From IMG/VR virus record IMGVR_UViG_3300023174_000129, positions 19,221-83,220 of that record: a stretch of 64,000 bases of DNA. The stretch is one strand, 5' to 3'. The translations under genes were made by a program, and so were the position numbers. How positions within the stretch are numbered: position 1 is the first letter of the stretch; the number at the start of each line of letters is the position of its first letter. Under the pieces are notes generated by a model. The model was given only the letters and a program-made list of their open reading frames with translations, was not told where the DNA came from and made no database searches. Below, in pieces: positions 7,683-56,268 of this stretch. This stretch comes from a virus.

Positions 7683-8665
7683 TTAATATAGTTAACTTCA
7701 TTAGTTCCTTCAATTATTTCACCAATTTCATAAGCATTAATTCCATATTCTATTGAATCTGATATTATCGCATTTGCATGCATTTCATCAACAACTAAAA
7801 CCATGCCAACACCACAATTAAATGTTCTTAACATCTCAACATCATTTAAATTAGCTGCTTCTTTAATTAATTTAAATACTGGTAATATATCAATTTTATC
7901 TAAATAGATATTTGCATCTACATTATTTAATATTCTATTTAAATTTTCTTTAATACCACCACCTGTTATATGAGCCATTCCATTTATATTATATTTTAAT
8001 AATTCTTTTACTAAATTATAATAACAAGTATGTGGTTTCAATATCGCTTCTAAAAAATTATCATCATTTATAATAGGTATTAATTTTCTAATTAATGAAT
8101 AACCATTTGTATGCGGACCATTTGATGCTAAAGCAATTATTTTATTACCAATTTTAATATTAGAACCATCAATTATTTTATCTCTTTCAATAATTCCTAT
8201 AATACTTGATGTTAAGATATAGTTTCCCGAAGATAACACACCTGGTTGCTCAGATGTTTCACCACCAATTAAATTACATCCTTGTGCTTTACAAGCATCT
8301 GACATACCTTTAACTAATCTTTTAATAATATCTGGTTGTAATTCACCACATATTATAGCATCTTGAACAACTAAAGGTGTAGCTCCCATAACGATAATAT
8401 CATTAATTAAATGGTTAATCATATCATAACAGATAGATTCAACTTTATTATTATCAATTGCTAATTTTTGTTTTGAACCAGGTTCTTCTGTTTTCATAAC
8501 AAGAATTGGATCTTTGTAATTATTTAACCCTAAATCAATTAAAGATGCAAAGGCACCTACTTTATTCAAAACTTTTTTATTATCAGTATCTAATATAGAT
8601 TTCATTTCAGTTTTAACACTATTCGCTTTATCTATATTTACACCCGAATCTTTGTATGTAATCAT
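7670..8665 (-). CDS. purM: Phosphoribosylformylglycinamidine cyclo-ligase (AIR synthetase)
   Basis: YKDSGVNI, LIGGETSEQPG, SNGPHTNGYSLIRK, AHITGGG, RTFNCGVGMV. Confidence 0.95.
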   Translation of the reverse strand: MITYKDSGVNIDKANSVKTEMKSILDTDNKKVLNKVGAFASLIDLGLNNYKDPILVMKTEEPGSKQKLAIDNNKVESICYDMINHLINDIIVMGATPLVVQDAIICGELQPDIIKRLVKGMSDACKAQGCNLIGGETSEQPGVLSSGNYILTSSIIGIIERDKIIDGSNIKIGNKIIALASNGPHTNGYSLIRKLIPIINDDNFLEAILKPHTCYYNLVKELLKYNINGMAHITGGGIKENLNRILNNVDANIYLDKIDILPVFKLIKEAANLNDVEMLRTFNCGVGMVLVVDEMHANAIISDSIEYGINAYEIGEIIEGTNEVNYINYLI

Positions 8666-8667
8666 AT

Positions 8668-9093
8668 TTAATTTTCTTTTAACATCATAACAGGATTACC
8701 ACCAGACATTCCTATTATTTCAAAACCATATCCCTCATACCACTTAACTAAATCAAATTTATTGTCTGCCAATAAATCAGCTATTAATATAATAGATTTA
8801 GCTTCTGACGCAGCATCAAGGAATGTTTCCATAGCTTCATTACCATATCCTCTATTTCTATAATCTGATTCAACATTTATATTTTTTAATATAGCAACTG
8901 GAAATTCGATTAAATTTTCATCAATATTTAATTTAACTCTTTCAAGATAAAGCCAATTATCTAAATATTCTTTTTTAAAATGTATAATACCATGCACCTC
9001 GCCGATATATTCGTCTTCAGAAATAGGTATATCAATAACTATTGATTCTTCATTTGATTCTTCATAAGATTCAAAATATTTTAAATACTTCAT
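8668..9093 (-). CDS. GNAT acetyltransferase with CTS-like leader
   Basis: Leader MKYLKYFE; YRNRGYG and WYEGYGF motifs. Confidence 0.8.
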   Translation of the reverse strand: MKYLKYFESYEESNEESIVIDIPISEDEYIGEVHGIIHFKKEYLDNWLYLERVKLNIDENLIEFPVAILKNINVESDYRNRGYGNEAMETFLDAASEAKSIILIADLLADNKFDLVKWYEGYGFEIIGMSGGNPVMMLKEN

Positions 9094-21877: not shown

Positions 21878-22314
21878 ATATTAAAGTTAATTTTATCAAT
21901 TCTTTTTTGATGTCTTCCGCCTTCAAATTCAGTTTCTAAAAAAACTTCAACTATATTTAAAGCTTCTTCTGTTGTTATAAACCTTGCTGGTAAGCATAAA
22001 ACATTTGCATCATTATGTTGTTTTGCTAAAATAGCTATCTCGGCTTTCCAACACAAAGCGGCTCTTACTCCTCGCCATTTATTTGCTGTCATACAAATAC
22101 CATTTCCAGTTCCGCATATTAAAATTGATAAATCAGTTTCACCTGATGTTAATGATTCCATAACTCTATGTGCATAATCTGGGTAATCAACAGATTCTCC
22201 TGTATCTGTTCCAAAATTAATTACTCCATATCCTTGTTCAGTTAACATATTAACTATTGCTGTTTTTAATTCTGGTCCAGCATGATCGTTTCCAATTGAG
22301 ATTTTTAGCGACAT
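21874..22314 (-). CDS. rpiB: Ribose-5-phosphate isomerase B
   Basis: GNDHAG, DYPDYA, CGTGNG, HNDANVL, FEGGRHQKRIDKI. Confidence 0.95.
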   Translation of the reverse strand: MSLKISIGNDHAGPELKTAIVNMLTEQGYGVINFGTDTGESVDYPDYAHRVMESLTSGETDLSILICGTGNGICMTANKWRGVRAALCWKAEIAILAKQHNDANVLCLPARFITTEEALNIVEVFLETEFEGGRHQKRIDKINFNI

Positions 22315-22319
22315 TTTTA

Positions 22320-23264
22320 TTAATTTAATTTTTCTCCTGTTTCTGGATTATAGTTTAAAATAAGTAATTCTTTACCTTTTGCTTGCTCACCTTTATCAGA
22401 TGCATTATTTCCACCATGTGCTGAACTTCTAAATACTTCTTTTTCAAACCACATATATTTATCTTTTGGTAATAATTCCTCTAATAATGGGAAATAATAA
22501 TATGATAAAGACCATCTTGCTTTAGATTTCTTAATTAATTCTAACAATCTTCTATGTGAAGCGGGTCCAAAAACACCATCAGAATCAGCACCATACCAAA
22601 ATAATCTTTTAGCATCATCTTCGCCATTTTCATCTGGTCTAAAATATGGTGGATCTAAATAAATATAAGTATCTTCTGCATCATATTTTAAAATTAATTC
22701 CTCAAAATCAATATTTAAAAACTCTGTAATCGATTGTAATTTAGCTGTATATGTATTCTTTTTTAATTTTTTAATTAAAGTTTCTAATTTAAGTGTATCT
22801 TTATCTTTTTTATACCCATTAAAACCAGCTCCTCTTGGATAAACCGAATTGTGAGCAGAAGTAATTAAAAATGCATACATAGATGCTCGCTTAAAATCAC
22901 CTATCTCAAAATCCATATTATCTAAAAAATCATTTTTAATATATTCTTTATAAATTGCTTTATAGAATTCCCATTTTTCTAATGGATCTGTTAAATCAGT
23001 TTTTAATTTTATTTCTATAAACTTTTCTAAAATTGGAATAAACTGTTCTGGTTGAGAACAACATTTATATAAATTAACTTGATGTTTATTTTTATCATTA
23101 TAAATAACCGTTTCGAAATTTAAGTTAGGATCATCCATATAAGTTCCCATACTTCCTGAAAAAGGTTCTAAATAAGTTTTAATACCATCTTTTGGTATTT
23201 TTGTGTTTATAAAGTCTTGGAAAGCCTTGCTTGACTTACCACCAAAATAAGAAATGCAACTCAT
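22320..23264 (-). CDS. Dam-family (D12 class) DNA adenine methyltransferase
   Basis: YFGGKS, YLEPFSGS, VIYND, YLDPPY. Confidence 0.9.
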   Translation of the reverse strand: MSCISYFGGKSSKAFQDFINTKIPKDGIKTYLEPFSGSMGTYMDDPNLNFETVIYNDKNKHQVNLYKCCSQPEQFIPILEKFIEIKLKTDLTDPLEKWEFYKAIYKEYIKNDFLDNMDFEIGDFKRASMYAFLITSAHNSVYPRGAGFNGYKKDKDTLKLETLIKKLKKNTYTAKLQSITEFLNIDFEELILKYDAEDTYIYLDPPYFRPDENGEDDAKRLFWYGADSDGVFGPASHRRLLELIKKSKARWSLSYYYFPLLEELLPKDKYMWFEKEVFRSSAHGGNNASDKGEQAKGKELLILNYNPETGEKLN

Positions 23265-23358
23265 TTTTTTCTGTATTTATTTTTATTATAATTATAATTA
23301 TACATGTAATAAAAGTTGTTTTTTAAGAAATAATTTCATATTTTTGTACTAAAAAATA

Positions 23359-23883
23359 ATGCATAATAGAATTGTATTAACAGGTGGGCCAGGAACAGGT
23401 AAGAGTTCCATAATTGATTTACTTTCAGAAAAAGGTTTTAATATTATACCGGAACCAGCAAGAACTTTGATTGAATTTTACAAAAAAAATTCGCCACATT
23501 TACTTCCAAAACTATCTAAAGAAAATAGATTGCTTTTTCAAAAAGCAATAGAAGATATGACTATTCAAAATTTTCATTCTAATATAGAAGGGTTTTTTGA
23601 TAGATCTATATTAGATGAAATTGGATATAGAAATAGGTATGAAATTGAAATAAATAAAGAGTTGGACTATGCCGCTAAAACATATCGTTATAATAAAGTA
23701 TTTATATTTCCATTTTGGAAAGAAATATACAAAACCGATGATGTTAGGCGCGAAACAACAGAAGAAGCAGAATTAATTGGTAAATTTTTACATACTACAT
23801 ATGTTAGTTATGGTTATACACCAATTATAGTGCCAAAATTCACACCAGAAAAAAGACTTGAATTTATCTTAAATAATATATAA
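23359..23883 (+). CDS. NadR/Ttd14-like AAA_28 ATPase
   Basis: IVLTGGPGTGKS, EPAR, FFDRS, W.EIYKTD..R.E; TTG-N20-TATTTTTG promoter upstream. Confidence 0.85.
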   Translation: MHNRIVLTGGPGTGKSSIIDLLSEKGFNIIPEPARTLIEFYKKNSPHLLPKLSKENRLLFQKAIEDMTIQNFHSNIEGFFDRSILDEIGYRNRYEIEINKELDYAAKTYRYNKVFIFPFWKEIYKTDDVRRETTEEAELIGKFLHTTYVSYGYTPIIVPKFTPEKRLEFILNNI

Positions 23884-23911
23884 GTAATAAAAACCATCAA
23901 ATGGTGGTTTT

Positions 23912-24194
23912 TTATTTTAATATAATATCATTTATTATTGATAAATAATCGGGATTTATTATGTAATCAAATTGTTTTGGTTGTCCTTTTGGCGCACCTC
24001 TCATACCAGTTGGTAATAAAATTAAATTATCGTCAAATCCACTATTTCTAAATTTTCTATTTATTTCCATAACAAAATTATCACGATATAATTTTTCTTT
24101 TTTTGGTTCTAACGGTAATTCGATAAATTCACCTAACAAAAATGTTGTAAAATCTTTATTATTAATTTTATTATCGTTTGTCAGAATTAATTTA
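23912..24194 (-). pseudogene. 3' fragment of a gene interrupted by the IS1595 transposon
   Basis: Joins in frame with 28958..29432 when the element and one TSD copy are removed; the ATG of the track ORF lies inside the TIR. Confidence 0.85.
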
Positions 24195-24269
24195 GGCACT
24201 AACATACAACTTTACACCAAATAGATAATTTTGAAAAAAAAACTTTTTCATTTTTTCTTCTATAATAAG

Positions 24270-24410
24270 AAGAGAGGCAGCCTGAACGTGATGTATGTTT
24301 CTGGCATAAAACGATTTCAACCAATATTATTATTTAGGGACGGACTGGCCGGATAACCTAAAATTTCAGTTTTATTTTTTCGTCATCAACGGGTACTGCC
24401 TCGCTTTTTT
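24270..24410 (+). ncRNA. Candidate structured non-coding RNA
   Basis: GC-richer intergenic stretch; GAGGCAG (24274-80) pairs with CTGCCTC (24396-402), extended by CCTG/CGGG and GTGATG/CGTCAT; internal hairpin TTTAGG...CCTAAA; AAAC-N17-TATAAT upstream and a T-run downstream. Confidence 0.55.
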
Positions 24411-24639
24411 ATACCAAAATATCTTTTATTTCAATCTCCAATCCTTTACATACTTCCAAAAGATATACATAAGAAGGATTAAATCCTCCTTTTTCTAATC
24501 TTTGAATTGATTGCCTGTCTTTACCTATTTTATCTGCCACTTCTTGAAGTGATAAACATTTATCGTGCCTAATCTTCCTTATCTTTTCTCCTAATTTAAT
24601 TAGTTCTTCTTTTTGTTCATTATTTATAGGTTGTGGCAT
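24409..24639 (-). CDS. XRE-family HTH regulator
   Basis: LGEKIRKIR..KCLSLQEVADKIG.DRQSIQRLEKG..NPS. Confidence 0.9.
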   Translation of the reverse strand: MPQPINNEQKEELIKLGEKIRKIRHDKCLSLQEVADKIGKDRQSIQRLEKGGFNPSYVYLLEVCKGLEIEIKDILV

Positions 24640-24738
24640 GCGCCAATTTTAGAAGAACTTTAACTTTTCTTTGACATCCGTAAGATTGACAAATCAAAAT
24701 GTTTTGTTTAATTTTGCTAAATTCTGATTATTTTAAAA

Positions 24739-25551
24739 ATGCATAAATACGAAGTTCGGTTTAAATACAACAATAAAAGCGGTGGTTGCACTTCGAAAAC
24801 TGCTGTGATCACATTTCCTAAAAGGGTATATTCTTTTTCCGAAGTATATGGAAATGACGGAAAGGGTAATAATGAAATTTTGACTAAAGCTGTAAATGAA
24901 CTTGGATTAAATCCAGATATGGTTGAAGCTATTTCTGATAGAAACAAACTTGATGGTAGTTGGTATAATTTAAAATATTTAGGAGAAGAAAGTGATATTA
25001 ATAATAGTTCATATAATGATTCTAATCAAAGTACAAACTATAATATTGGTTCTGGAATAGGAAATGCTGCGTCGGGAATAGGCGATGGTATTAGTAGTGT
25101 ATTAGGATCATTAGGCACAGGCGCTAGCAAGGCGATTTCTTATTTAGAAGCTGATAAATTAAAACGAGAAGAAAAAGATAGAGAAATAGAAGAATCTATA
25201 AATGTTCAAAATAATGAAATAATAAATTTTACTTTTAGTAATTCAAAAGAAAGCATAGTAAGAGAAATGAGTAAATTACTATCAATGTATAATTCTACTC
25301 CTTTGTCTAATTATTCAACAAAATCTACAATATATTCAAAAATAAATGAAGGAATTATATTACTTAAAGGGCTTAATGCATCAGTAGAAGTGGAACATTT
25401 TGAAGCAGAACAAAAAAAGATAAAACCTAATAAATTATTTGAAGTTTTTTTCTCTATAAAAAGAGAATATAGATTGGCAATTATTTTTTTGAGTTTTTCC
25501 TTTATTTTTCTAATTATCATAAAAGTTTTAGAGTATATCAGACTGCATTAA
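24739..25551 (+). CDS. Hypothetical protein with C-terminal transmembrane helix (transposon cargo)
   Basis: 270 aa; Gly/Ser-rich middle; hydrophobic LAIIFLSFSFIFLIII; TTG-N20-TAATTTTG promoter upstream. Confidence 0.75.
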   Translation: MHKYEVRFKYNNKSGGCTSKTAVITFPKRVYSFSEVYGNDGKGNNEILTKAVNELGLNPDMVEAISDRNKLDGSWYNLKYLGEESDINNSSYNDSNQSTNYNIGSGIGNAASGIGDGISSVLGSLGTGASKAISYLEADKLKREEKDREIEESINVQNNEIINFTFSNSKESIVREMSKLLSMYNSTPLSNYSTKSTIYSKINEGIILLKGLNASVEVEHFEAEQKKIKPNKLFEVFFSIKREYRLAIIFLSFSFIFLIIIKVLEYIRLH

Positions 25552-25629
25552 ATAAAAAGGTTTTATATCTGAATTATTTTCTGCAACAACTATAAGTTTT
25601 TTGTTTTTTAACTTTCAAAATCAATTTTT

Positions 25630-25764
25630 ATGTCGTATCAATGTCAAAAATGTGGCACCACATCATATAGTGGTCCAAATGGTATTCAACGTAACTGTTC
25701 ATCTGGTGGAAAATGCGTGTGGGTAAAAATTTCAAGATTTGTAAAACACATTTTATCTTGGTAA
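25630..25764 (+). CDS. Small Cys-rich protein, 44 aa (not in ORF track)
   Basis: MSYQCQKCGTTSYSGPNGIQRNCSSGGKCVWVKISRFVKHILSW, followed by a terminator hairpin at about 25765-25798. Confidence 0.55.
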   Translation: MSYQCQKCGTTSYSGPNGIQRNCSSGGKCVWVKISRFVKHILSW

Positions 25765-25838
25765 AAAACAAACCGATATAACTATATCGGTTTGTTTTAA
25801 ATTTTACAACAAAATATAATTTTCATACTATATGTAGT

Positions 25839-26249
25839 ATGAAAATTATTAAAAAACTTTTGTTGAAATTTGCTTTATTTATTCTAAAAATAATTGGTAT
25901 GCCATATTCTATAAATCAAATAGAAAATCTTAAAAAACTATTAGAAACATCACTTTTTAAACATTTAGGAGTTAATTTAAGTGTTAAAACAATTTCATAC
26001 AATCCAGATGATACAAGAAATAGTATTACCAAAATTGTTTTTGAAGTTACATTTTCGGATAATAATAAAATGGAAATTAGTATTGAATTTGATATAGAAA
26101 ATAATTTAGTTAATGTAAGTTATATAAATAGCACAATATACGATATACATTTATTAGCAAGTATATTACAGGCAATATCTCTAAATATAAGAATGTATGA
26201 AAAAGAAATTATCAATTCATTTTTACAACTTATTCCAAAACAAGTTTAA
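25839..26249 (+). CDS. Hypothetical protein (transposon cargo)
   Basis: 136-aa ORF with a phage-type AAC-N-TATA element upstream. Confidence 0.65.
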   Translation: MKIIKKLLLKFALFILKIIGMPYSINQIENLKKLLETSLFKHLGVNLSVKTISYNPDDTRNSITKIVFEVTFSDNNKMEISIEFDIENNLVNVSYINSTIYDIHLLASILQAISLNIRMYEKEIINSFLQLIPKQV

Positions 26250-26275
26250 TAATAATGTGAAGATAAAATACTATC

Positions 26276-26653
26276 TCATTTATAGGTAAATACATCGCCT
26301 GCAATCTTAAACTCTCCTAACATAATTATATCAAGACCGATTATTACATCGCAGTCCGTTCTTGAAACCGGAATAAGTGGTGATTCGACTCCAAAAGGTT
26401 TTATTTTATCTGATAAGAAAATTGCACAGTAATAAATACCAGTTTCTAAAAATTGACTTTGTATATTACCTATTTTTATCTTTTCGCCGGTTAAATCAAG
26501 TTGAAGTTCCTTAACTACTTTTTCCGATATTAAAGTTCTTGAAGAACCAGTGTCCCAAACCGCAACATATTCAATAGCCGAATATGGATTATTTGGTTTA
26601 TATACCCAAACATTGCTTCTTATTTTATCTCCTATTATTTTTTCATTTACCAT
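26276..26653 (-). CDS. Retropepsin-like aspartyl protease (transposon cargo)
   Basis: AVWDTGSSRTLIS and DVIIGLDII motifs. Confidence 0.85.
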   Translation of the reverse strand: MVNEKIIGDKIRSNVWVYKPNNPYSAIEYVAVWDTGSSRTLISEKVVKELQLDLTGEKIKIGNIQSQFLETGIYYCAIFLSDKIKPFGVESPLIPVSRTDCDVIIGLDIIMLGEFKIAGDVFTYK

Positions 26654-26661
26654 TTTAAAAT

Positions 26662-26946
26662 TTATAGATTCTGTATTTCAATATTATCATAATAAATAAT
26701 TTTACTATTTGTTAAAGGTTTAACTATTATCAAACCTTTCTCGGCTGTCTGTGCTATTATTTTTCGATTTTCATTAAGGTTTTCTTCTCTTGTTAGTTCT
26801 TGTTTTGTCAAATCAAGACCTATAATTTGTGCGTTTTTTATTTGCTCTGATGTTAGATTAGAATTGTCAACAATGAAATTTTTATCTATATTATGTTTAT
26901 CTTCGTAAACGGGCGAAAATTGGTTATATGTTATTAAATGTTTCAT
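26662..26946 (-). CDS. Hypothetical protein with CTS-like leader (transposon cargo)
   Basis: MKHLITYNQFSPVYE; TAATATATA 4 nt upstream. Confidence 0.65.
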   Translation of the reverse strand: MKHLITYNQFSPVYEDKHNIDKNFIVDNSNLTSEQIKNAQIIGLDLTKQELTREENLNENRKIIAQTAEKGLIIVKPLTNSKIIYYDNIEIQNL

Positions 26947-27062
26947 ATTCTATATATTATATTTGCAAATAGGATTAGAGTTGTATAAGTGCCTAAACAT
27001 TTTGTGGATAATTTTTTTTTAAAATCCTTGTTTTAGTGTAAAGTTCTTCTTATCTTTACACT

Positions 27063-28070
27063 ATGTTAGAATTAAAGCCATTTAGAAGCATTTTAGATTT
27101 ATTAAGACAATTTCCTGACGAACAAACCTGTATTAATCACCTACAAACATTACGCTGGAACGATAATGTTATTTCTCCATTTGATTCAACCTCCAAAATC
27201 TATAAATGCTCCAATAATAAATATAAGTGTAAAAATACTGGTAAATATTTCAATGTTTTAACTAATACTATTTTTGAAAACACTAAAATACCTTTACAAA
27301 CTTGGTTTCTTGCTATTTACCTTTTCACTACACATAATAAAGGTATTAGTAGCTATACATTAGCAACTGAATTAAATATCACTCAAAAATCAAGTTGGTT
27401 CTTGTTGTCAAGAATTAGATATGCTATGGAACATGATAACTTTCTAACTAATTTTGACGGTTCAATAGAACTTGACGAAACTTATATCGGTGGTAAAAAC
27501 AAAAATAGACACAATGATAAAAAAGTAGAAGGTTCACAAGGTAGAAGCGGTGAAGATAAACAACCTGTTTTTGGAATGTTTAAAGATGAAGTTTCTGAAA
27601 TAGTTTATAGACCAAATAAAAACAATAATGAATTAGCGGTAAAAGAAAAAGTAATTATTAATCCTGCTATTGTAAGAGTAGAAGTAGTTAATAATGTAAA
27701 AAGAGAAACAATTTTACCGATTATTAAAAACAAAGTTGTAGATAATTCAATAGTAGTTACTGATGAATATAGAATATATAATCGTTTAAGTGAAAATTAC
27801 GATCATAAAGTAGTTTATCATAAAATAAGTAATTATGTAACAAATGAAGGTTTCACAACTAATAGATTAGAAGGTTTTTGGAATATATTAAAGAAAGCGT
27901 GGACTACAACTTATATGGGTCGTGTAACAGGCAAACATTTACATAGATATTGTAGAGAAACAGAATATAGATTTAATACAAGACATTTAACTGCTTCCGA
28001 GAAATTCAATTTACTATTAGCCGGAACAGAAAAAAGATTAAGATATGTTGATTTGATAAACAACAAATAA
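27063..28070 (+). CDS. IS1595-family (ISXO2-like) DDE transposase
   Basis: FPDEQTC..HL..LRW, FNVLTNTIFENTKIPL..W, KGISS..LA.EL.ITQKSSW, ELDETYIGGK, VTDEY, TNRLEGFW, EYRFN. Confidence 0.95.
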   Translation: MLELKPFRSILDLLRQFPDEQTCINHLQTLRWNDNVISPFDSTSKIYKCSNNKYKCKNTGKYFNVLTNTIFENTKIPLQTWFLAIYLFTTHNKGISSYTLATELNITQKSSWFLLSRIRYAMEHDNFLTNFDGSIELDETYIGGKNKNRHNDKKVEGSQGRSGEDKQPVFGMFKDEVSEIVYRPNKNNNELAVKEKVIINPAIVRVEVVNNVKRETILPIIKNKVVDNSIVVTDEYRIYNRLSENYDHKVVYHKISNYVTNEGFTTNRLEGFWNILKKAWTTTYMGRVTGKHLHRYCRETEYRFNTRHLTASEKFNLLLAGTEKRLRYVDLINNK

Positions 28071-28092
28071 TATTTTCATACTATAAAATAGT

Positions 28093-28338
28093 ATGAAAAA
28101 AATTAGGTATTTTATTAAAAAACTGCTAATGAATATTGATATTGATTTTTACATAAATACTAATAATAATTGGAACTTATTAAAGAGAGATACTTTATTA
28201 AGTATGCCTAATATTGGTGAAAAAGTAACTTTATTTACCGATAATAAAGAAGAAACATTTATTGTAGTTGATGTTGAACATAAATCTGGTAAAAATAATA
28301 TCGTATTATTAAGAAAATCAAAATCACTAATTCCATAA
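28093..28338 (+). CDS. Hypothetical protein (transposon cargo)
   Basis: 81-aa ORF whose upstream region resembles that of 25839. Confidence 0.6.
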   Translation: MKKIRYFIKKLLMNIDIDFYINTNNNWNLLKRDTLLSMPNIGEKVTLFTDNKEETFIVVDVEHKSGKNNIVLLRKSKSLIP

Positions 28339-28340
28339 AT

Positions 28341-28700
28341 ATGCAACATAATATTAGGCGTAATAAGATTATTTTTGATTTATTAAGTCAACAGAAAAAA
28401 AGATTAGATTGGAATATATCAATCAATGATATGTTTAATAGATATATTTTTGAAAACTTGAATATATCAGATAGTAGGGAGATATTGAGTAAAATTAGTG
28501 GTGATATACAACCAAGTATATTAGATAATGATTCGGTATTACTTGAAACATTAAAGTTGATAGGTTTAATGGAATCTTGTGTTACAAAAGTTGAATTGTT
28601 ATTTCTATTAGAAAGAAGGAAGGAAATTAAGTATGGTAAGCCATTAACAGAATTTGATAAAATATTAAAGGCAATAATGACGGTTTCAAATGTAAAATAA
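28341..28700 (+). CDS. Hypothetical protein (transposon cargo)
   Basis: 119-aa ORF in the same run. Confidence 0.6.
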   Translation: MQHNIRRNKIIFDLLSQQKKRLDWNISINDMFNRYIFENLNISDSREILSKISGDIQPSILDNDSVLLETLKLIGLMESCVTKVELLFLLERRKEIKYGKPLTEFDKILKAIMTVSNVK

Positions 28701-28715
28701 ACAACATTTAAGTAT

Positions 28716-28928
28716 ATGGCAAATAAAGTGATAGAACTTGTGAGTTTTTCATCACCACCACACGCTAAACATATTCTTGTAAAGAAAAGTGATGGTGAAT
28801 TACAAATTCATTTATTAGATAAATTTTATAACAACCAAGGTGGTATTGTATTGTCCGAAGCTAATGCTAAGTTGCTAGTTAAAGAATTAATGGACGAACT
28901 ATATGGTGAGTTCGAAATGCCTAAATAA
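28716..28928 (+). CDS. Hypothetical protein (transposon cargo)
   Basis: 70-aa ORF ending 2 nt before the right TIR. Confidence 0.6.
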   Translation: MANKVIELVSFSSPPHAKHILVKKSDGELQIHLLDKFYNNQGGIVLSEANAKLLVKELMDELYGEFEMPK

Positions 28929-28957
28929 TTTTTGGTGTAAAGTTGTAAGTTAGTGCC

Positions 28958-29432
28958 TTAATTTAATTAAATCTTTTTCTTTTTGACGAAAAAAAGATTC
29001 TTGTTTTCTTTTGGTATTTGAATAAAAATTCAAATAAAATCTCTCAAATCCTCTTTTTGGTCCAATAGCTTTTATATTATCCGTCCCACCATTTGGTTTA
29101 TCAATTATTAAATTACCGATTCCATCAGAATTTACTATCGAATCTTTTTGGAAAATATATTTTCCAAATTTAAAATCATTTAAGACAATAAAAATTCCTT
29201 TCGGAATAGAAATTATATCTTGCATCATTACATCTTTTGCTTTAACTTTTAAAGCAAATTTAGGATCTGTTTTTTTAACTTTTGATAATTTTTTAGCATA
29301 TTTAATATATTCCATATCAAAATCTAAATTTACATCCTTTGGACGAGAAAAATAATTTTTAAAAGTTGCTTCAGAATCATCACCAACTATAAAATCGTCT
29401 TTGTATTCTTCAAATAATTTTAAATATTTCAT
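28958..29432 (-). pseudogene. 5' fragment of the interrupted gene, carrying a CTS-like leader
   Basis: MKYLKLFEEY...KEKDLIKL then reads into the TIR (RH-stop); the reconstructed gene is 249 aa. Confidence 0.85.
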
Positions 29433-29474
29433 ATAGTATATATAAAAAAACCTATCTAAAAAGATAGGTTTTTG

Positions 29475-29831
29475 TGGAGCTGCCCAACAGCGAGATGGGG
29501 TGTTACTAGCTAACTTAAATTACTCTTTCACAAGCTTAGATTATTTTTCTAAATTATCAAAATATTAAGTTTATTTAATACTAAAAACTAAAAAATTAGC
29601 AGGTTATTAAGTAACCACTCTTTAACTTTTGAACAGAGTTACCTGCGGAAATCCTTAGGCGAAAGCCACTTCGTTTACCTTTAAGATGTTGTTTGACATA
29701 GCAAAAATTAAATCTTCGCTAGTTGCAGTTTCGTTTGCATTTATTTTTCGTTGCTTCTTATTAATCGGGTGCAACCACCGATGCTTGCGTCATAACTCAC
29801 TTTACACTAATAGGCTAATCAATTCAGCCCC
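29475..29831 (-). ncRNA. ssrA: tmRNA
   Basis: 5' GGGGCTG pairs with 3' CAGCTCC-A (G3:U70 Ala identity); helix 2 GCAAGC/GCTTGT; PK1-like ATCGG/CCGAT and GTTGC/GCAAC; resume context AAAATAAAT-GCA; tag ends VAFA-stop. Confidence 0.9.
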
Positions 29832-29850
29832 ATAAGTAAGAATTATATTA

Positions 29851-29881
29851 CAAATATACGAAGTAGTTTTGAAATAACAAA
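29851..29881 (-). promoter_or_regulatory. Bacteroidota-type primary sigma promoter for the tmRNA
   Basis: TTTG-N19-TATATTTG on the minus strand. Confidence 0.75.
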
Positions 29882-29916
29882 ATTTTATTCGTATATTTTT
29901 TATTATATATTATAAT

Positions 29917-30165
29917 TTATTTTGTTTTCTTTGGTTTTGATGGCTTTTTTACAGTTTCGGTTTCTTGTGTAGCAATTTGCCACCCATTATTCAAATAGTG
30001 TGTTAAAAAATCATCAACATCTTTTTGAATAATCATACTCTTTTTAGTTACTTTTCCTGTTTTTTCTGTATAAAGTATCCATACAAACCAATCATCATCA
30101 GGTTCAGATGGTTTAAACCAAATTGTATATTTGGATCTTGGTTTAATTAATTTTATTTCTTTCAT
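29917..30165 (-). CDS. Hypothetical protein
   Basis: Likely start MKEIKLIKPRSK at 30165; basic C-terminal tail. Confidence 0.6.
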   Translation of the reverse strand: MKEIKLIKPRSKYTIWFKPSEPDDDWFVWILYTEKTGKVTKKSMIIQKDVDDFLTHYLNNGWQIATQETETVKKPSKPKKTK

Positions 30166-30427
30166 AAGTACAAAATATGACAGGTATTTTTTTATACATC
30201 CACATTTCAAATGTGCATGAAAAATCTGGCATATAATTAATTTGTATATTTTTTAATTCCTCCATTATATTCATAATAGAAAACATTGTTTCACATTTCT
30301 GCAATTCTCTTTCAATAATTATTCGACTAAATTTATCTACATAAATACATAAATTTTCTTGTTCCTTCCGAATAAGGTTTGCTATTTCTTTTATTTCGTC
30401 TAAATCTTGTATTAATTCTATTTCCAT
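30143..30427 (-). CDS. Hypothetical protein
   Basis: 94-aa ORF coupled to the peptidase gene. Confidence 0.6.
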   Translation of the reverse strand: MEIELIQDLDEIKEIANLIRKEQENLCIYVDKFSRIIIERELQKCETMFSIMNIMEELKNIQINYMPDFSCTFEMWMYKKIPVIFCTYERNKIN

Positions 30428-30429
30428 AA

Positions 30430-31812
30430 TTATTCAATTTCTATATTCATTAATATATTACCAGAAGAATCATCCGTTAAGTATATATACGGATTCAAAT
30501 CATATTTTTTAAATAAATTATTTAAATTTGATATATCTTCATAATTTTCCATAAATGGTGATTCTGCTGTCTTTAATTGCATAAAAATTCTATCATTCGA
30601 AGCCTTTAATTTAACATCGTTATAAAATGTTAATCCTTTAAATTCAGTTAACATATCATAATTTCTTTCAACTATTTCAGTATTATATCCAATTTTTCTA
30701 TTTACAACTAAATTTTCCCAATCGATATTAATACATGCTTGACATAATTGTTCTAAAAATGTTATATTAACATATTCTCCAGTTGTATGCTCTTTAAAAT
30801 AACCAACAGAAACATTAGTGCACTCATTTATTACACCAATAAAATTTGCCGAATCTGTAAAAGAACCTGTATCATCTAATTCATAATGTAATCCTTGATT
30901 AATTAATTCTTCACATAAACTATTAGCAAAAGCATCAGAACAAGTCCTTGTTAAACTTTGATGTGTAATAATTGAATGATAATTTCTTCTATCAAAAGAT
31001 ACGCATTTAGTAATGCCTTTTATATGCTCACATTTATCATAATTTTTTGAAACTAATCCAGATCCTATACCACCAACTTCTTCGCCTATAAAGAAATAAT
31101 ATAAACCAGGTATATTATGTGCTATCATATATAACATGACAGCTACTCCTGCTTTATCATCCCCACTTAAAATGGTTTTACCATCAGAACAAAAGAAAGA
31201 CCATTCATCTTTTTGAAATGAAAGTAAATTAACTTTTTCTTGTATTTTGCATGCCGAATCAAAATGAGAGGTAAACATAGTATTACTATCTCCAATTTTT
31301 ATATAATAATTACCATAATCGTCTAATTGTAATGGTAAATCAATAAATTTAAGAATCTCATCTTCTGTTCCATATGGATATGTTTGATAACATAACGATT
31401 TAAATGTATAAGCAACATCTTTTGGATTATAGATAAAATCTGGTTTATCAAAAATTGACATATCAATTGTTTGATACTCCAAAGTTTCATTATTTAATAC
31501 TTTCTGATTATAATCAAAAATAAATATACTAATTTCATTTTCAGTAAATTTAAATTTCGTAAAAAATCTATCCAAAAAATCTCGTATAGCTATTTTTTCA
31601 TAGGCTCTTTTACAATCAAAATAAGCTTTAAAATAAAATTTCGAATCTAAATCAAGCAAGCTAATACCTGTTTCAGTTTCATTCATAAATGAACCTAATA
31701 TAGCATAAGATATATTATCTGATATTTCCATTAATATACCTTCTAATCTTTTTGTATAAGTAAATGTTGTTTTAGATTGATTTTTTTGTTTATATTTTCT
31801 TTTTCGACTCAT
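30430..31812 (-). CDS. M20/M28-family zinc peptidase-like protein
   Basis: TSHFDS, GDDKAGV, GEEVGGIGS, SFDRR, N.SVGY..EH. Start placed at 31812, after TTTG-N20-TATCTTTG. Confidence 0.8.
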   Translation of the reverse strand: MSRKRKYKQKNQSKTTFTYTKRLEGILMEISDNISYAILGSFMNETETGISLLDLDSKFYFKAYFDCKRAYEKIAIRDFLDRFFTKFKFTENEISIFIFDYNQKVLNNETLEYQTIDMSIFDKPDFIYNPKDVAYTFKSLCYQTYPYGTEDEILKFIDLPLQLDDYGNYYIKIGDSNTMFTSHFDSACKIQEKVNLLSFQKDEWSFFCSDGKTILSGDDKAGVAVMLYMIAHNIPGLYYFFIGEEVGGIGSGLVSKNYDKCEHIKGITKCVSFDRRNYHSIITHQSLTRTCSDAFANSLCEELINQGLHYELDDTGSFTDSANFIGVINECTNVSVGYFKEHTTGEYVNITFLEQLCQACINIDWENLVVNRKIGYNTEIVERNYDMLTEFKGLTFYNDVKLKASNDRIFMQLKTAESPFMENYEDISNLNNLFKKYDLNPYIYLTDDSSGNILMNIEIE

Positions 31813-54522: not shown

Positions 54523-56268
54523 TTAGAATTCAAATTCAGGAGTTCCGCCCTGTGCTGGCGGTGCTTGTCCGCCCTGTGCCGGTGGAGTTTGTCCTTGTGC
54601 AGGAGGTGCTTGCCCGCCTAACTCTCCACCAATTTGCCCACCTGGTGCTCCACCAAACTCTCCACCAATTTGACCACCTGGTGCTCCACCAAACTCTCCA
54701 CCAATTTGACCGCCTGGTGCGGCGCCTTGTGCTCCTGGTGCGGCACCGGTAGATCTTGATTTAATCCAATAAGCTTGGTTTTCTTCAATTTCTTGTTGAG
54801 ATAATTTTAAAATGTTGTTTACAATAAAATCAATATGAAAATAAGAGGTGCCATCTTCTTTTTTAAGATTTTGAACTTGTGTAGCCGCTTCTATTTTTTT
54901 AGTATATGTTTTAATCCTTTTCCACTCTTCTATCGTTTGATTTGAACTAAATATAATATCTACGCTATTTAAAAATACTTCATCATCTTTTAATTCTGGA
55001 AATTCCATACACATTTGTAAACGTAGTGGTTTTATTATTAATTCTTTGAAGTTTGCCCTTAAACGACCAATAAAATTAGCAAATTTATTTTCCTCAACAT
55101 TTACGTCTGCTGTATCAAGTGTAAATATATTACCACCGCCACCGGCTAAATCAAAACGAGGCATTGGTATTTTTGACGCTCGTTTTAAATTATTTGAAAA
55201 ATATTTTAAAACACCTTCTTCATTCAAATCATTACCTGTTGGAGTAACTAATTCAAATTGTGGAGTTCCCTGATCGCCATCAGGAAACCATAATTGTTTA
55301 TTATATGGTAAATGTTTACTACCATTTATTAATAATGTTCCCAATGAATCATCCCATTCAACATGTTCTGAATAATTAGCTATTAATTGTCCTATTTGTT
55401 CTTCTGCTTTTTGACGAGATAAACCTTTTGTTGGTATTGTAAATTTTTGATAAACTGTAGCATTAATAATATTATACATTATTCTTGTTTGTTCAATAAT
55501 TTTCAATTGATTATATGGTTTAATTAAACCTTCAACATAAGAAGTTTCAGCAAAATCATTTTGTGTCGTATATGAAATTAATAATAATTGAGAATCTAAA
55601 AAAATTCTTCTTAATTGTGGGTCTTCTGGATATTGAATCCATAAATTACCTATAGTAGGCTCATAGGATGGAACTAATGTATCAGGTCTTAATCTATTAA
55701 ATGAAATTATATTTTGTTTTTTATCATCCCAAACAATCTCAAAAGCAATAAATCCATCAATTAAAAAATCTTTCATCAAATTCCAAGCCGTAATAGTGTC
55801 TGAAAAACTATAACGATTATAAATTTTTTCAAAAAATTCTTGATATTTATTTCTTATTTCCGAAGAATAACTATTTGGTAAAGGTTTTGTTGCACAAAAA
55901 TCTTGACCATTAAATATAATAGCCTCATCTGATATTATTGATACATAATCTCTAATTTCATCTTTAATAGAATATTCTCTTAAAATTCTCCTTTTGTCTG
56001 AATAAGATTTATCTAAATATGGAATTGCTTTTTTATTCAAAACTTGTGCTATAGCTCTTTGGCTAAAGAAATCATACATAGAGTTATTTTTCTGTGATAA
56101 AGGATCTTCATTCATAGAAATACCAACTGTATTTCTAATAATCATATCATCATATCTCATTCCAAAATTAGATAAATTTCTTAATAATCTATTAAATATT
56201 CCTTTATTTTCACCAGCCATGGATGATATATTCATATCACCTTGATTTATTGGATTATAACTTGCCAT
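54523..56268 (-). CDS. Portal protein (T4 gp20-like)
   Basis: FLIDGFIAFE, SYVEGLIKPYNQLKIIE, YFSNNLKRASKIPMPRF, EENKFANFIGRLR; position upstream of the protease and capsid genes. Confidence 0.92.
   Translation of the reverse strand: MASYNPINQGDMNISSMAGENKGIFNRLLRNLSNFGMRYDDMIIRNTVGISMNEDPLSQKNNSMYDFFSQRAIAQVLNKKAIPYLDKSYSDKRRILREYSIKDEIRDYVSIISDEAIIFNGQDFCATKPLPNSYSSEIRNKYQEFFEKIYNRYSFSDTITAWNLMKDFLIDGFIAFEIVWDDKKQNIISFNRLRPDTLVPSYEPTIGNLWIQYPEDPQLRRIFLDSQLLLISYTTQNDFAETSYVEGLIKPYNQLKIIEQTRIMYNIINATVYQKFTIPTKGLSRQKAEEQIGQLIANYSEHVEWDDSLGTLLINGSKHLPYNKQLWFPDGDQGTPQFELVTPTGNDLNEEGVLKYFSNNLKRASKIPMPRFDLAGGGGNIFTLDTADVNVEENKFANFIGRLRANFKELIIKPLRLQMCMEFPELKDDEVFLNSVDIIFSSNQTIEEWKRIKTYTKKIEAATQVQNLKKEDGTSYFHIDFIVNNILKLSQQEIEENQAYWIKSRSTGAAPGAQGAAPGGQIGGEFGGAPGGQIGGEFGGAPGGQIGGELGGQAPPAQGQTPPAQGGQAPPAQGGTPEFEF
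54540..54748 (-). repeat. G/P/Q/A repeats in the portal C-terminus
   Basis: APGGQIGGEFGG-type unit x3 (36 bp) and Q(A/T)PPAQG x3. Confidence 0.85.

What the first reader, a model, noticed from the sequence alone, without database searches (positions are those of the whole stretch)
24187..28965. Complete IS1595 cargo transposon inserted in a phage gene, with the empty site reconstructable
Seen: 27-bp TIRs (one mismatch) and a perfect 8-bp TSD, TTAATTTA, enclose 4763 bp with a transposase, about nine passenger ORFs and an ncRNA candidate. Removing the element fuses ...KEKDLIKL to ILTNDNKINN... in frame, restoring a 249-aa leader-bearing gene. Both halves are still open, suggesting a recent insertion. 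Known: IS1595 members typically make 8-bp TSDs and some carry passengers.
Basis: seen in the sequence. Interest (0 to 1): 0.8.

Follow-up and report, generated by a model that had tools for sequence, protein, structure and literature searches.

The report
IS1595 cargo transposon splitting a phage gene
A 4.8-kb jumping gene of a known family, carrying nine extra genes, has landed inside a gene of a large freshwater phage, and a related phage still has that gene whole.

Summary
A 4763-bp element (24195-28957) has 27-bp inverted ends with one mismatch and a perfect 8-bp duplication, TTAATTTA. It encodes an intact IS1595-family transposase and nine other ORFs, and it splits a 249-aa phage gene.

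Seven uninterrupted homologues (232-251 aa) are tiled exactly by the two halves. A syntenic 144-kb phage contig (L077) has the gene whole and no element.

New here:
- The same element, with 5 differences in about 4770 aligned bases, sits on two contigs with different flanks in another lake's run (X2).
- Its closest relatives (75% transposase identity, ends 1-3 mismatches from ours, perfect 8-bp duplications) lie in Bacteroidota chromosomes.
- They share a backbone: an Xre regulator, a 44-aa zinc-ribbon-like ORF, the transposase and a 119-aa protein. So not all "passengers" are free cargo.
- The 119-aa protein ends in a short tail motif. That motif is found on 44 of 135 ORFs placed just after the transposase in related elements, against 4 of 5959 other ORFs.

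The RNA candidate is unsupported. No empty site was seen in the same strain.

This scan has found the same kind before on other DNA (e1-5826558, e1-3106385, e1-4194487). Verdict: a clean new member of the known cargo-carrying ("transporter") IS kind of the IS1595 family.

The parts
24187..24194 (.). Left copy of the 8-bp target-site duplication, TTAATTTA
24195..24221 (+). Left terminal inverted repeat, 27 bp, starting GG. On the minus strand it supplies the in-frame ATG (24205) of the C-terminal gene fragment.
   Evidence: ORF list
24264..24412 (+). Candidate structured RNA; unsupported. It is absent from the sister elements L078 and L079.
   Evidence: MFE -38 kcal/mol, z -2.4. No Rfam match at E <= 1. 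Its 21-nt core has 0 exact matches in metagenome and viral contigs. Layout of the sister elements.
24409..24639 (-). 76-aa Xre-type HTH regulator; backbone gene shared with the L078 and L079 elements
   Evidence: Pfam HTH_3, E 2.9e-8. phmmer E 5e-9 and 6.6e-8 to the L078 and L079 ORFs in the same position and orientation.
24739..25551 (+). 270-aa passenger. It has a conserved 85-aa N-terminal domain of unknown function, a Gly-rich and coiled middle, and a hydrophobic C-terminal stretch (the last two by inspection).
   Evidence: No Pfam, PHROG or NCBIfam match. N-domain about 79% identical to 236-335-aa hypothetical proteins.
25630..25764 (+). 44-aa Cys-rich (zinc-ribbon-like) ORF; backbone gene
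   Evidence: phmmer E 4e-12 (L079) and 1.4e-10 (L078), same position
25765..25798 (.). Inverted repeat after the 44-aa ORF. The two X2 contigs end on either side of it.
25839..26249 (+). 136-aa ORF; weak positional counterpart in L078 and L079. Its start codon lies in a palindrome that recurs at 28065-28100.
   Evidence: phmmer E 0.0017 to L078:5539-5937. Repeat D12. Upstream motif shared with L078 and L079.
26276..26653 (-). 125-aa retropepsin-like aspartyl protease (has the DTG motif); passenger seen only in this element
   Evidence: 424 relatives at E <= 0.001. 22 of 25 aligned members match PF13650 or PF13975. D34, T35 and G36 are invariant. The profile matches the Ddi1 protease domain in the PDB.
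26662..26946 (-). 94-aa ORF upstream of the protease on the same strand; unknown function
27031..27061 (.). Internal copy of the core of the terminal repeat, GTGTAAAG-N10-CTTTACAC, ending 1 nt before the transposase ATG. The first half-site is conserved in L078 and L079.
   Evidence: GTGTAAAGTT occurs 4 times in the window against 0.12 expected. Upstream alignment by eye.
27063..28070 (+). IS1595-family DDE transposase, 335 aa, intact
   Evidence: PF12762, 111.8 bits (cut-off 27). NF033547, 174.3 bits (cut-off 75), model positions 1-215 of 215. All 46 invariant columns of a 16-sequence alignment are kept (the alignment blocks were read in the 13-sequence version).
28093..28338 (+). 81-aa ORF; weak counterpart directly upstream of the p119 homologue in L079
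   Evidence: phmmer E 0.0019
28341..28700 (+). 119-aa conserved accessory protein ending in the tail ...TEFDKILKAIMTVSNVK
   Evidence: E about 1e-45 to L078 and L079, 2e-11 to L081, 6e-9 to L086. 52 proteins at E <= 0.001, none with a Pfam family, every source name 'hypothetical protein' or uninformative. Tail motif enrichment.
28716..28928 (+). 70-aa ORF; unknown function; found only in this element
28931..28957 (-). Right terminal inverted repeat (one mismatch to the left one). It supplies codons R, H and the stop that end the N-terminal gene fragment.
28958..28965 (.). Right copy of the 8-bp target-site duplication
28950..29432 (-). N-terminal fragment (160 aa) of the interrupted 249-aa phage gene
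   Evidence: 65-71% identical to residues 1 to about 158 of seven proteins of 232-251 aa
23912..24205 (-). C-terminal fragment (97 aa) of the interrupted gene
   Evidence: 56% identical to residues 159-251 of P0004, E 1e-31; alignment

Best explanation
This is a complete cargo-carrying insertion sequence ('transporter IS') of the IS1595 family, probably recently active, inserted into a non-essential 249-aa gene of a large Bacteroidota-type freshwater phage.

Shown:
- the ends, the duplication and an intact transposase of the family;
- an intact homologue of the target gene in a syntenic phage that lacks the element;
- a near-identical copy of the whole element on contigs with other flanks in another lake;
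- sister elements with perfect 8-bp duplications in Bacteroidota chromosomes.

Inferred mechanism. The DDE transposase binds the conserved inner part of the 27-bp ends (TTTACACC), cleaves at the terminal GG, and joins the ends to 8-bp staggered cuts in an AT-rich target resembling TAATTTA. Gap repair then yields the duplication. Whether the move is cut-and-paste or copy-and-paste is not known.

The internal copy of the end core in front of the transposase gene is probably a site where the transposase regulates itself. The tail-bearing 119-aa protein is probably a transposition accessory or regulator. Both are inferences.

The insertion splits the phage gene into a 160-aa fragment, which stops two codons into the right end, and a 97-aa fragment, whose ATG lies in the left end.
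For: - Ends and duplication: (0.00 chance matches in 100 shuffles).
- Family: PF12762 E 3.9e-32; NF033547 174.3 bits against a cut-off of 75; catalytic blocks conserved.
- Empty site: 7 intact homologues of 232-251 aa; the halves tile them with no gap at the junction. L077 is collinear with window 33100 to 22326. Its gene is whole at 8001-8750, and nothing in it matches 24195-28957.
- Moves as a unit: run X2 has a 6857-bp contig ending on window 24185-25756 and a 15265-bp contig ending on 25764-28961. They carry 4 + 1 differing letters. The rest of each contig is unlike the window, and the window's flanks are nearly absent from X2. Variant proteins on Logan contigs of exactly 6857 and 15265 bp corroborate this.
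- Not a misassembly: a 17246-bp contig of X1 spans the whole stretch, and an X3 contig (another study) bridges the right junction 28756-29105 with 0 differences.
- Family context: 25 of 71 viral loci hold end-bounded elements of 2.1-5.5 kb with perfect 8-bp duplications. L078, L079, L081 and L086 do so in bacterial genomes, with ends 1-3 mismatches from ours on the closest ones. L078's flanks are ordinary Bacteroidota chromosomal genes.
Against: - Only one copy lies in the 83-kb record, which is estimated 36% complete.
- The X2 flanks could not be read, so 'a different site' rests only on their being under 90% like the window. A diverged relative carrying the element at the same site is not excluded.
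- The exact end sequence was not found in the viral or JGI metagenome collections.
- Pfam's Zn_Tnp_IS1595 N-terminal domain was not detected at E <= 0.1.
- Transposition itself, and the roles of the internal site and of p119, are untested.
Confidence: 0.92

Rival explanations
1. The present unit arose by fusion of two modules. A small ancestral IS (transposase, p119 and the right end) captured a left module (left end, HTH, zinc-ribbon ORF and p136), and the internal end-like site at 27031-27061 is the scar. This concerns origin only; it is compatible with the element now moving as one unit.
For: The internal sequence TTTAGTGTAAAGTT resembles the inner part of the right end and is conserved in L078 and L079 ([I2], 44, 71). 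In many relatives the left end lies only 65-120 bp upstream of the transposase gene.
Against: The site lacks the terminal ...GTGCC tip. The same full layout is shared by three elements at 75% transposase identity, so any fusion is old. The X2 copy carries both parts with 5 differences in all. A regulatory binding site explains the conservation equally well.
Confidence: 0.25
2. The element is a fixed, no longer mobile fossil in this phage lineage. The X2 copy is the same insertion in a diverged relative, passed on vertically or by homologous recombination.
For: Only one copy lies in the record. The same junction occurs in runs of other studies (X3). The X2 left match runs 10 nt past the end into the flank (24185-24194).
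Against: The element is about 99.9% identical in X2 while the flanks are under 90% alike. Vertical descent does not predict this. The X2 right match stops 4 nt into the duplication (28961), so the flank there is different. The transposase and the ends are intact. Sister elements favour TAATTTA-like targets (TAATTTAA in both L078 and L081), which can explain the partial flank match.
Confidence: 0.1
3. The insertion is an assembly chimera that joins a bacterial transposon to a phage contig.
For: Metagenome assemblies can join sequences at repeats. The element's relatives lie in bacteria.
Against: A perfect duplication flanks it, and the two gene halves tile intact homologues exactly. Separate assemblies hold it: the 83-kb record, a 17246-bp contig of X1 (which may be the source sample) and a junction-bridging contig in X3 of another study. 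The element's proteins and the C-terminal gene fragment are on record on a 239272-bp contig, as is the N-terminal fragment. Element GC (about 26%) equals phage GC.
Confidence: 0.01

Closest known systems
Transporter IS (tIS) of the IS1595 family. The source is Siguier, Gagnevin & Chandler 2009, Res Microbiol 160:232, which I saw only as a reference-list entry in PMC12561309. The tIS definition comes from passages of PMC9330008, and the family features from passages of PMC8101967.
   Same: DDE_Tnp_IS1595 transposase, 8-bp duplication, inverted ends starting GG, one transposase gene, and passenger genes inside the ends.
   Different: It sits in a phage genome. It has a conserved multi-gene backbone (Xre regulator, 44-aa zinc-ribbon ORF, 119-aa tail-bearing protein). 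The Pfam Zn_Tnp_IS1595 domain was not detected. Its ISfinder subgroup could not be assigned because ISfinder was not available.
Sister elements in Bacteroidota chromosomes: L078 (uncultured Bacteroidetes MAG, 3308 bp, duplication TAATTTAA) and L079 (Flavipsychrobacter stenotrophus, 5443 bp, duplication ATAACCCG).
   Same: 75% transposase identity, ends 1-3 mismatches from ours, the same gene order (HTH(-), zinc-ribbon ORF, p136-like, transposase, p119), and the internal end-like site upstream of the transposase gene.
   Different: The variable slots hold other genes; in L079, for example, a Laminin_G_3 + Por_Secre_tail protein. They lack the 270-aa protein, the protease pair, the 70-aa ORF and the 187-bp RNA-candidate region. 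Their hosts are bacterial chromosomes with higher GC than the element.
IS1595-type elements of viral contigs in which a P63C-domain, RhuM or other gene is coupled to the transposase gene
   Same: The end consensus GGyAATkATATAC..TTTACAC, 8-bp AT-rich duplications, passenger genes, and a protein with the C-terminal tail F-D/N-x-x-L-K-x-x-L-x-V/F.
   Different: Transposase identity is only 40-55%. None of our nine passengers has a tblastn match there. In our element the tail-bearing protein is a 119-aa family without a P63C domain, and it is separated from the transposase gene by an 81-aa ORF.
Eukaryotic Merlin transposons (passages of PMC8101967).
   Same: The same transposase domain, GG termini and 8-9-bp duplications.
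   Different: They are eukaryotic, carry no passenger genes and lack the N-terminal zinc finger.

Membership tests
IS1595 family | Transposase with the DDE_Tnp_IS1595 catalytic domain | tested here: met
   PF12762 E 3.9e-32, 111.8 bits (cut-off 27), profile positions 3-153 of 153. NCBIfam NF033547 174.3 bits (cut-off 75), positions 1-215 of 215. The invariant D138, D234, N267 and E270 columns are kept.
IS1595 family | 8-bp target-site duplication | tested here: met
   TTAATTTA on both sides. Perfect 8-bp duplications also flank 25 of 71 viral relatives and 4 bacterial relatives. The feature as stated in PMC8101967 was seen in passages only.
IS1595 family | Terminal inverted repeats with terminal 5'-GG | tested here: met
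   27 bp with 1 mismatch, starting GGCAC.
IS1595 family | N-terminal zinc-finger domain (Zn_Tnp_IS1595), present in all groups except IS1016 | tested here: inconclusive
   There is no Pfam match at E <= 0.1. A C23-x2-H ... C49-x6-C56 pattern is present; C49 and C56 are invariant and C23 nearly so in 16 relatives.
IS1595 family | Single uninterrupted transposase ORF | tested here: met
   A 335-aa ORF aligns end to end with relatives.
Transporter IS (tIS) | Passenger genes lie between the ends and move with them | tested here: met
   Nine ORFs lie inside the ends. In run X2 the whole interior (all but 7 bases between its two contigs) is 99.9% identical while both flanks differ. The X2 flanks themselves were not read.
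ISfinder subgroup (ISNwi1, ISNha5 and others) | Placement by transposase phylogeny against ISfinder references | not testable with these tools
   No ISfinder sequences were available. The subgroup named in earlier notes of this scan was not tested.

The most novel reading that the evidence does not exclude
This is a phage-adapted lineage of IS1595 transposons with a fixed multi-gene backbone: an Xre regulator, a zinc-ribbon peptide, a p136-like protein, the transposase and an accessory protein. The accessory protein's short C-terminal tail docks it to the transposase. The lineage shuttles between Bacteroidota chromosomes and their very large phages. It uses virions as vehicles, and it hands the phage swappable cargo (here a membrane-anchored protein and a retropepsin-like protease) expressed from element-borne promoters that also work during infection.
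Probability: 0.2. Interest if true: 0.65.

Novelty: new member of a known kind. Interest (0 to 1): 0.4.

Why it matters
Insertion sequences are thought to be scarce in phage genomes (recalled, not checked here). In the GenBank phage set only 3 of 50,697 records encode a relative of this transposase.

This case offers a natural before-and-after pair: an intact gene in a syntenic relative and a split gene here. It also offers the same 4.8-kb element in a second genomic context in another lake, and sister copies in Bacteroidota chromosomes. Together these give a concrete example of gene traffic by transposition between bacteria and a relative of the huge phages.

The conserved backbone and the tail motif on the protein placed after the transposase are testable leads to how this branch of IS1595 elements is controlled. 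The element type itself was described in 2009, and this scan has met it several times, so the finding adds to a known picture and does not change it.

Tried and rejected
- Rfam on 23800-29400 at E <= 1 gave 0 matches. ARAGORN found no tRNA or tmRNA in the window.
- The sigma-70 promoter and terminator scan of the element was uninformative: 40 promoter-like sites against 34.7 expected, and 0 terminators.
- Exact scans for the end sequence gave 0 matches in viral contigs and 0 in JGI metagenome contigs. Scans for the 21-nt core of the RNA candidate gave 0 in metagenome contigs and 0 in viral contigs. So the RNA has no comparative support.
- The whole element against GenBank phages (blastn) gave one 135-bp match inside the transposase gene only.
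- The N-half as a query in viral contigs gave no relative. The relatives came from the protein database instead.
- None of the nine passengers has a tblastn match (E <= 1e-3) in the 72 viral loci L006-L077.
- PHROGs, Pfam and NCBIfam gave nothing for seven of the nine passengers.
- The Atlas look-ups for p119 and for the p270 N-domain gave only sub-threshold rows: best 0.87 with 95 shared features, and all query-normalised TM-scores under 0.5. They were not used.
- hhalign of the p119 family against the P63C-slot proteins aligned only the 18-residue tail (E 0.042, probability 1.2%). That is too weak alone, so the enrichment count carries the point.
- The strict motif AACAA-N14-19-CTATAW-N3-8-ATG occurs 4 times in the window (3 distinct sites, 2 of them in the element) against 0.22 expected. 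This is too few to link the element to a class of phage promoters.
- The copy of GTGTAAAGTT at 15900 lies inside an ORF and has no end-like tip next to it. I treated it as chance.
- Read laying: none of the 15 listed joints is the 24194-to-28958 excision joint, and 17 more were not shown. Most listed joints have 20-25-letter sides and were ignored as noise. Their small shares are not evidence.
- Paper searches listed no paper on IS1595 cargo elements in phage genomes. I read the listings only, plus passages of three papers. Supplements were not consulted.
Full report
**1. The observation**

Reading 23700-29500 and the repeat search (pair I1) show inverted ends at 24195-24221 and 28931-28957. 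A script printed them: 27 bp with one mismatch, each flanked by TTAATTTA. With up to three mismatches the end sequence occurs only at these two places in the 64-kb window, and 100 shuffles gave a mean of 0.00 matches. The enclosed length is 4763 bp.

Inside lie a 335-aa ORF (27063-28070, +) and nine further ORFs of 76, 270, 44, 136, 125, 94, 81, 119 and 70 aa.

The interrupted gene is on the minus strand. The 160-aa N-fragment (28950-29432) ends ...KEKDLIKL and then RH-stop, read from the right end of the element. The 97-aa C-fragment (23912-24205) starts MLVP, read from the left end, then KL from the duplication, then ILTNDNK. Deleting the element and one duplication copy gives 158 + 91 = 249 aa.

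**2. The setting**

The window is part of an 83,220-bp IMG/VR virus record rated 36% complete. That record holds one copy of the element. Window ORFs match PHROG families for a DNA helicase, a DNA polymerase, DNA methyltransferases, a head maturation protease and a portal protein.

The portal's best matches in GenBank phages are uncultured phages of 462-735 kb (up to 67.8% identity), followed by the Prevotella Lak phages. The element's proteins and the C-terminal gene fragment are also on record on a 239,272-bp contig, as is the N-terminal fragment. GC is about 25% in the flanks and about 26% in the element.

**3. Family**

The 335-aa protein matches Pfam DDE_Tnp_IS1595 (E 3.9e-32, 111.8 bits, cut-off 27). 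It also matches NCBIfam NF033547 'IS1595 family transposase' (174.3 bits, cut-off 75, model positions 1-215 of 215). In alignments with 12 and then 15 relatives it keeps every invariant column.

Against the 12 viral relatives it carries an extra stretch of about 25 residues between the first two catalytic blocks. By length, the two 75%-identical bacterial relatives seem to share it. I did not inspect their alignment blocks.

Pfam's N-terminal zinc-finger model was not matched at E <= 0.1, although a conserved Cys/His pattern is present.

PMC8101967 (passages read) states that family members are usually flanked by 8-bp duplications and have one transposase gene. It also states that all groups except IS1016 have the zinc finger, and that the related Merlin elements have terminal GG. 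PMC9330008 (passages read) defines transporter IS as IS derivatives that carry passenger genes.

**4. The empty site**

A search with the N-fragment found seven proteins of 232-251 aa at 65-71% identity covering 98-99% of it (8 hits of 49 candidates, one being the query itself). The C-fragment aligns to residues 159-251 of one of them at 56% identity, E 1e-31. In a joint alignment the two fragments tile the intact proteins and overlap only in the duplicated KL.

One homologue lies on a 143,836-bp viral contig (L077). tblastx shows that contig is collinear with window 33100 to 22326. The two gene halves map 117 bp apart there and 4876 bp apart here, and nothing in L077 matches 24195-28957. A DNA alignment of the in-script virtual empty site to L077 runs through the junction without a gap. 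L077 reads GATTTAATTAATTTTATT where the window has GATTTAATTAAATTAA followed by TTCTG.

The fragments show no clear decay. The N-half is 68-74% identical to the intact proteins, which are 72% identical to each other on average. The C-half is 44-58% identical, against a mean of 59% and a minimum of 36% among the intact ones.

**5. Evidence that the unit moves**

Twenty runs were listed for 22000-31000, and four were laid.

- X1, which may be the source sample, has one 17,246-bp contig across the whole stretch.
- X2, another lake and another study, has a 6857-bp contig whose last 1572 bases lie on 24185-25756 with 4 differing letters. It also has a 15,265-bp contig whose last 3198 bases lie on 25764-28961 with 1 differing letter. 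The other 5.3 kb and 12 kb of these contigs do not lie on the window at 90% likeness.
- In X2 the element has a depth of about 19-36, while the adjoining flank bins (23505-24106 and 28923-29825) mostly have 0.7-6.
- The exact look-up independently lists single-residue variants of the 270-aa and 119-aa proteins on Logan contigs of exactly 6857 and 15,265 bp.
- X3, a third study, has a 350-bp contig bridging the right junction (28756-29105) with no differences. X7 has small identical pieces of both the element and the flanks.

So the insertion is established in this phage lineage across studies, and the same element also exists elsewhere.

Limits: these are contigs, not reads. None of the 15 listed joints is the excision joint.

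**6. Relatives of the element**

In viral contigs, 71 loci encode relatives of the transposase at 39-55% identity. In 25 of the 71, a pair of ends (at most 5 mismatches in 22 bases) with a perfect 8-bp duplication bounds an element of 2134-5467 bp. The ends share GGyAATkATATAC..TTTACAC with ours.

Pfam matches of ten sampled passengers include P63C, two DNA methylases (one fused to an Mrr-like nuclease domain), RhuM and a TRL-like protein. A single-linkage BLAST cluster whose representative has P63C covers 20 of the 25 elements. The shared tail described in section 7 may be what links that cluster.

In genome contigs, 388 relatives were found and 80 kept. By my reading of their titles, all but two or three name Bacteroidota.

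The two closest, at 75% identity, are L078 (an uncultured Bacteroidetes MAG) and L079 (Flavipsychrobacter stenotrophus). Their ends are 1-3 mismatches from ours.

| Locus | Element length | Duplication | Element GC | Flank GC |
|---|---|---|---|---|
| L078 | 3308 bp | TAATTTAA | 32.5% | 43% |
| L079 | 5443 bp | ATAACCCG | 32.8% | 41% |
| L081 | 3610 bp | TAATTTAA | 27% | 32% |
| L086 | 3045 bp | AAAAATTA | 26% | 38% |

L078's flanks encode a cyclic-nucleotide-gated channel, an oxidoreductase and a PKD/Por_Secre_tail protein. L079's flanks encode an HpaII-like nuclease piece and a Schlafen-type helicase.

**7. Backbone versus cargo**

Our element shares several genes with L078 and L079, in the same order and orientation:
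- the HTH protein (E 5e-9 and 7e-8);
- the 44-aa Cys-rich ORF (E 1e-10 and 4e-12);
- the 119-aa protein (E about 1e-45; also 2e-11 in L081 and 6e-9 in L086, where it directly follows or overlaps the transposase gene);
- weakly, the 136-aa ORF (E 0.0017) and the 81-aa ORF (E 0.0019).

The 270-aa protein, the 125-aa and 94-aa pair, the 70-aa ORF and the 187-bp stretch between the left end and the HTH gene are found only in our element.

The 125-aa protein is a retropepsin-like aspartyl protease. It has 424 relatives at E <= 0.001, DTG is invariant, 22 of 25 aligned members match PF13650 or PF13975, and the profile matches Ddi1 protease domains in the PDB.

The 270-aa protein shares an 85-aa N-domain of unknown function with hypothetical proteins of 236-335 aa.

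The p119 family has 52 members at E <= 0.001. None has a Pfam family, and every source name is 'hypothetical protein' or uninformative.

It occurs in the last 30 residues of 44 of 135 ORFs that start within 60 nt of the transposase stop. It occurs in 4 of 5959 other ORFs of the same 145 loci. By eye, many more of the 135 carry looser variants. p119 ends ...TEFDKILKAIMTVSNVK.

**8. Internal site**

GTGTAAAGTT, the core of the ends, occurs four times in the window against 0.12 expected: in both ends, at 27036, and at 15900. The copy at 27036 forms GTGTAAAG-N10-CTTTACAC, ending one base before the transposase ATG. Its first half, and the surrounding 60 bp, are conserved upstream of the transposase genes of L078 and L079. 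I read it as a transposase-binding regulatory site. A scar of an old fusion is the alternative.

**9. RNA candidate**

The plus strand of 24255-24418 folds to -38 kcal/mol (z -2.4, 1 of 200 shuffles as good). The minus strand gives z -1.6. There is no Rfam match, no exact match of its core elsewhere and no counterpart in L078 or L079. The X2 copy shows no listed difference in this stretch, so covariation cannot be tested. It stays a candidate.

**10. Comparison and verdict**

The element meets the tested defining features of the IS1595 family, apart from the inconclusive zinc finger, and it meets those of a transporter IS. This scan has reported the same kind on other DNA (e1-5826558, e1-3106385, e1-4194487).

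Five paper searches listed no paper on such elements in phages. Only 3 of 50,697 GenBank phage records encode a relative of the transposase.

I rate it a clean, well-documented new member of a known kind. It brings three modest additions: evidence of recent mobility in nature, sister copies in host-type chromosomes, and a conserved backbone with a tail-bearing accessory protein.

Noticed in passing
window 29472-29831 (-): Full-length match to the Rfam tmRNA model (positions 1-374 of 374, E 8.9e-12), but at 33.3 bits it is below the gathering score of 47. ARAGORN reports no tmRNA. The stretch is conserved in L077 and lies just upstream of the interrupted gene.
   Followed up: partly
window, 9 ORF starts (4331, 6882, 9093, 12846, 14685, 15119, 29432, 43294, 61655): A shared N-terminal motif like MKY(L/I)K(L/Y)FE occurs on 9 of 91 ORFs, against 0 of 350 internal Met sites. 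The first ORF of the bacterial sister element L078 (4348-4584) also starts MKYLKKFETF.
   Followed up: partly
window 25812-25845 and 28065-28100: Two copies of a palindrome, TTTTCATACTAT..ATAGTATGAAAA, overlap the start codons of the 136-aa and 81-aa ORFs (D12). A related upstream motif, ACAACAAA-N13/14-CTATAAT-N4-ATG, precedes the counterpart genes in L078 and L079.
   Followed up: partly
L077 9315-10089: The syntenic phage has about 770 bp between the ATPase-like gene and the methyltransferase gene. The window has only 74 bp there (23264-23338).
   Followed up: no
window 54523-56268 (-): The portal protein is 66-68% identical to those of uncultured phages of 635-642 kb (LR756502.1, LR745206.1) and 29% identical to the Prevotella Lak phages. 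The window's phage therefore belongs with the huge Bacteroidota-type phages.
   Followed up: no
L079 9481-10101 (-): A 206-aa ORF 170 bp from the right end of the Flavipsychrobacter element matches only profile positions 202-328 of 359 of the HpaII restriction endonuclease model. It may be a truncated defence gene.
   Followed up: no
L006-L076: Elements related to ours in viral contigs carry DNA methyltransferases (N6/N4 with an Mrr-like domain; C5), RhuM and TRL-like genes as passengers.
   Followed up: partly
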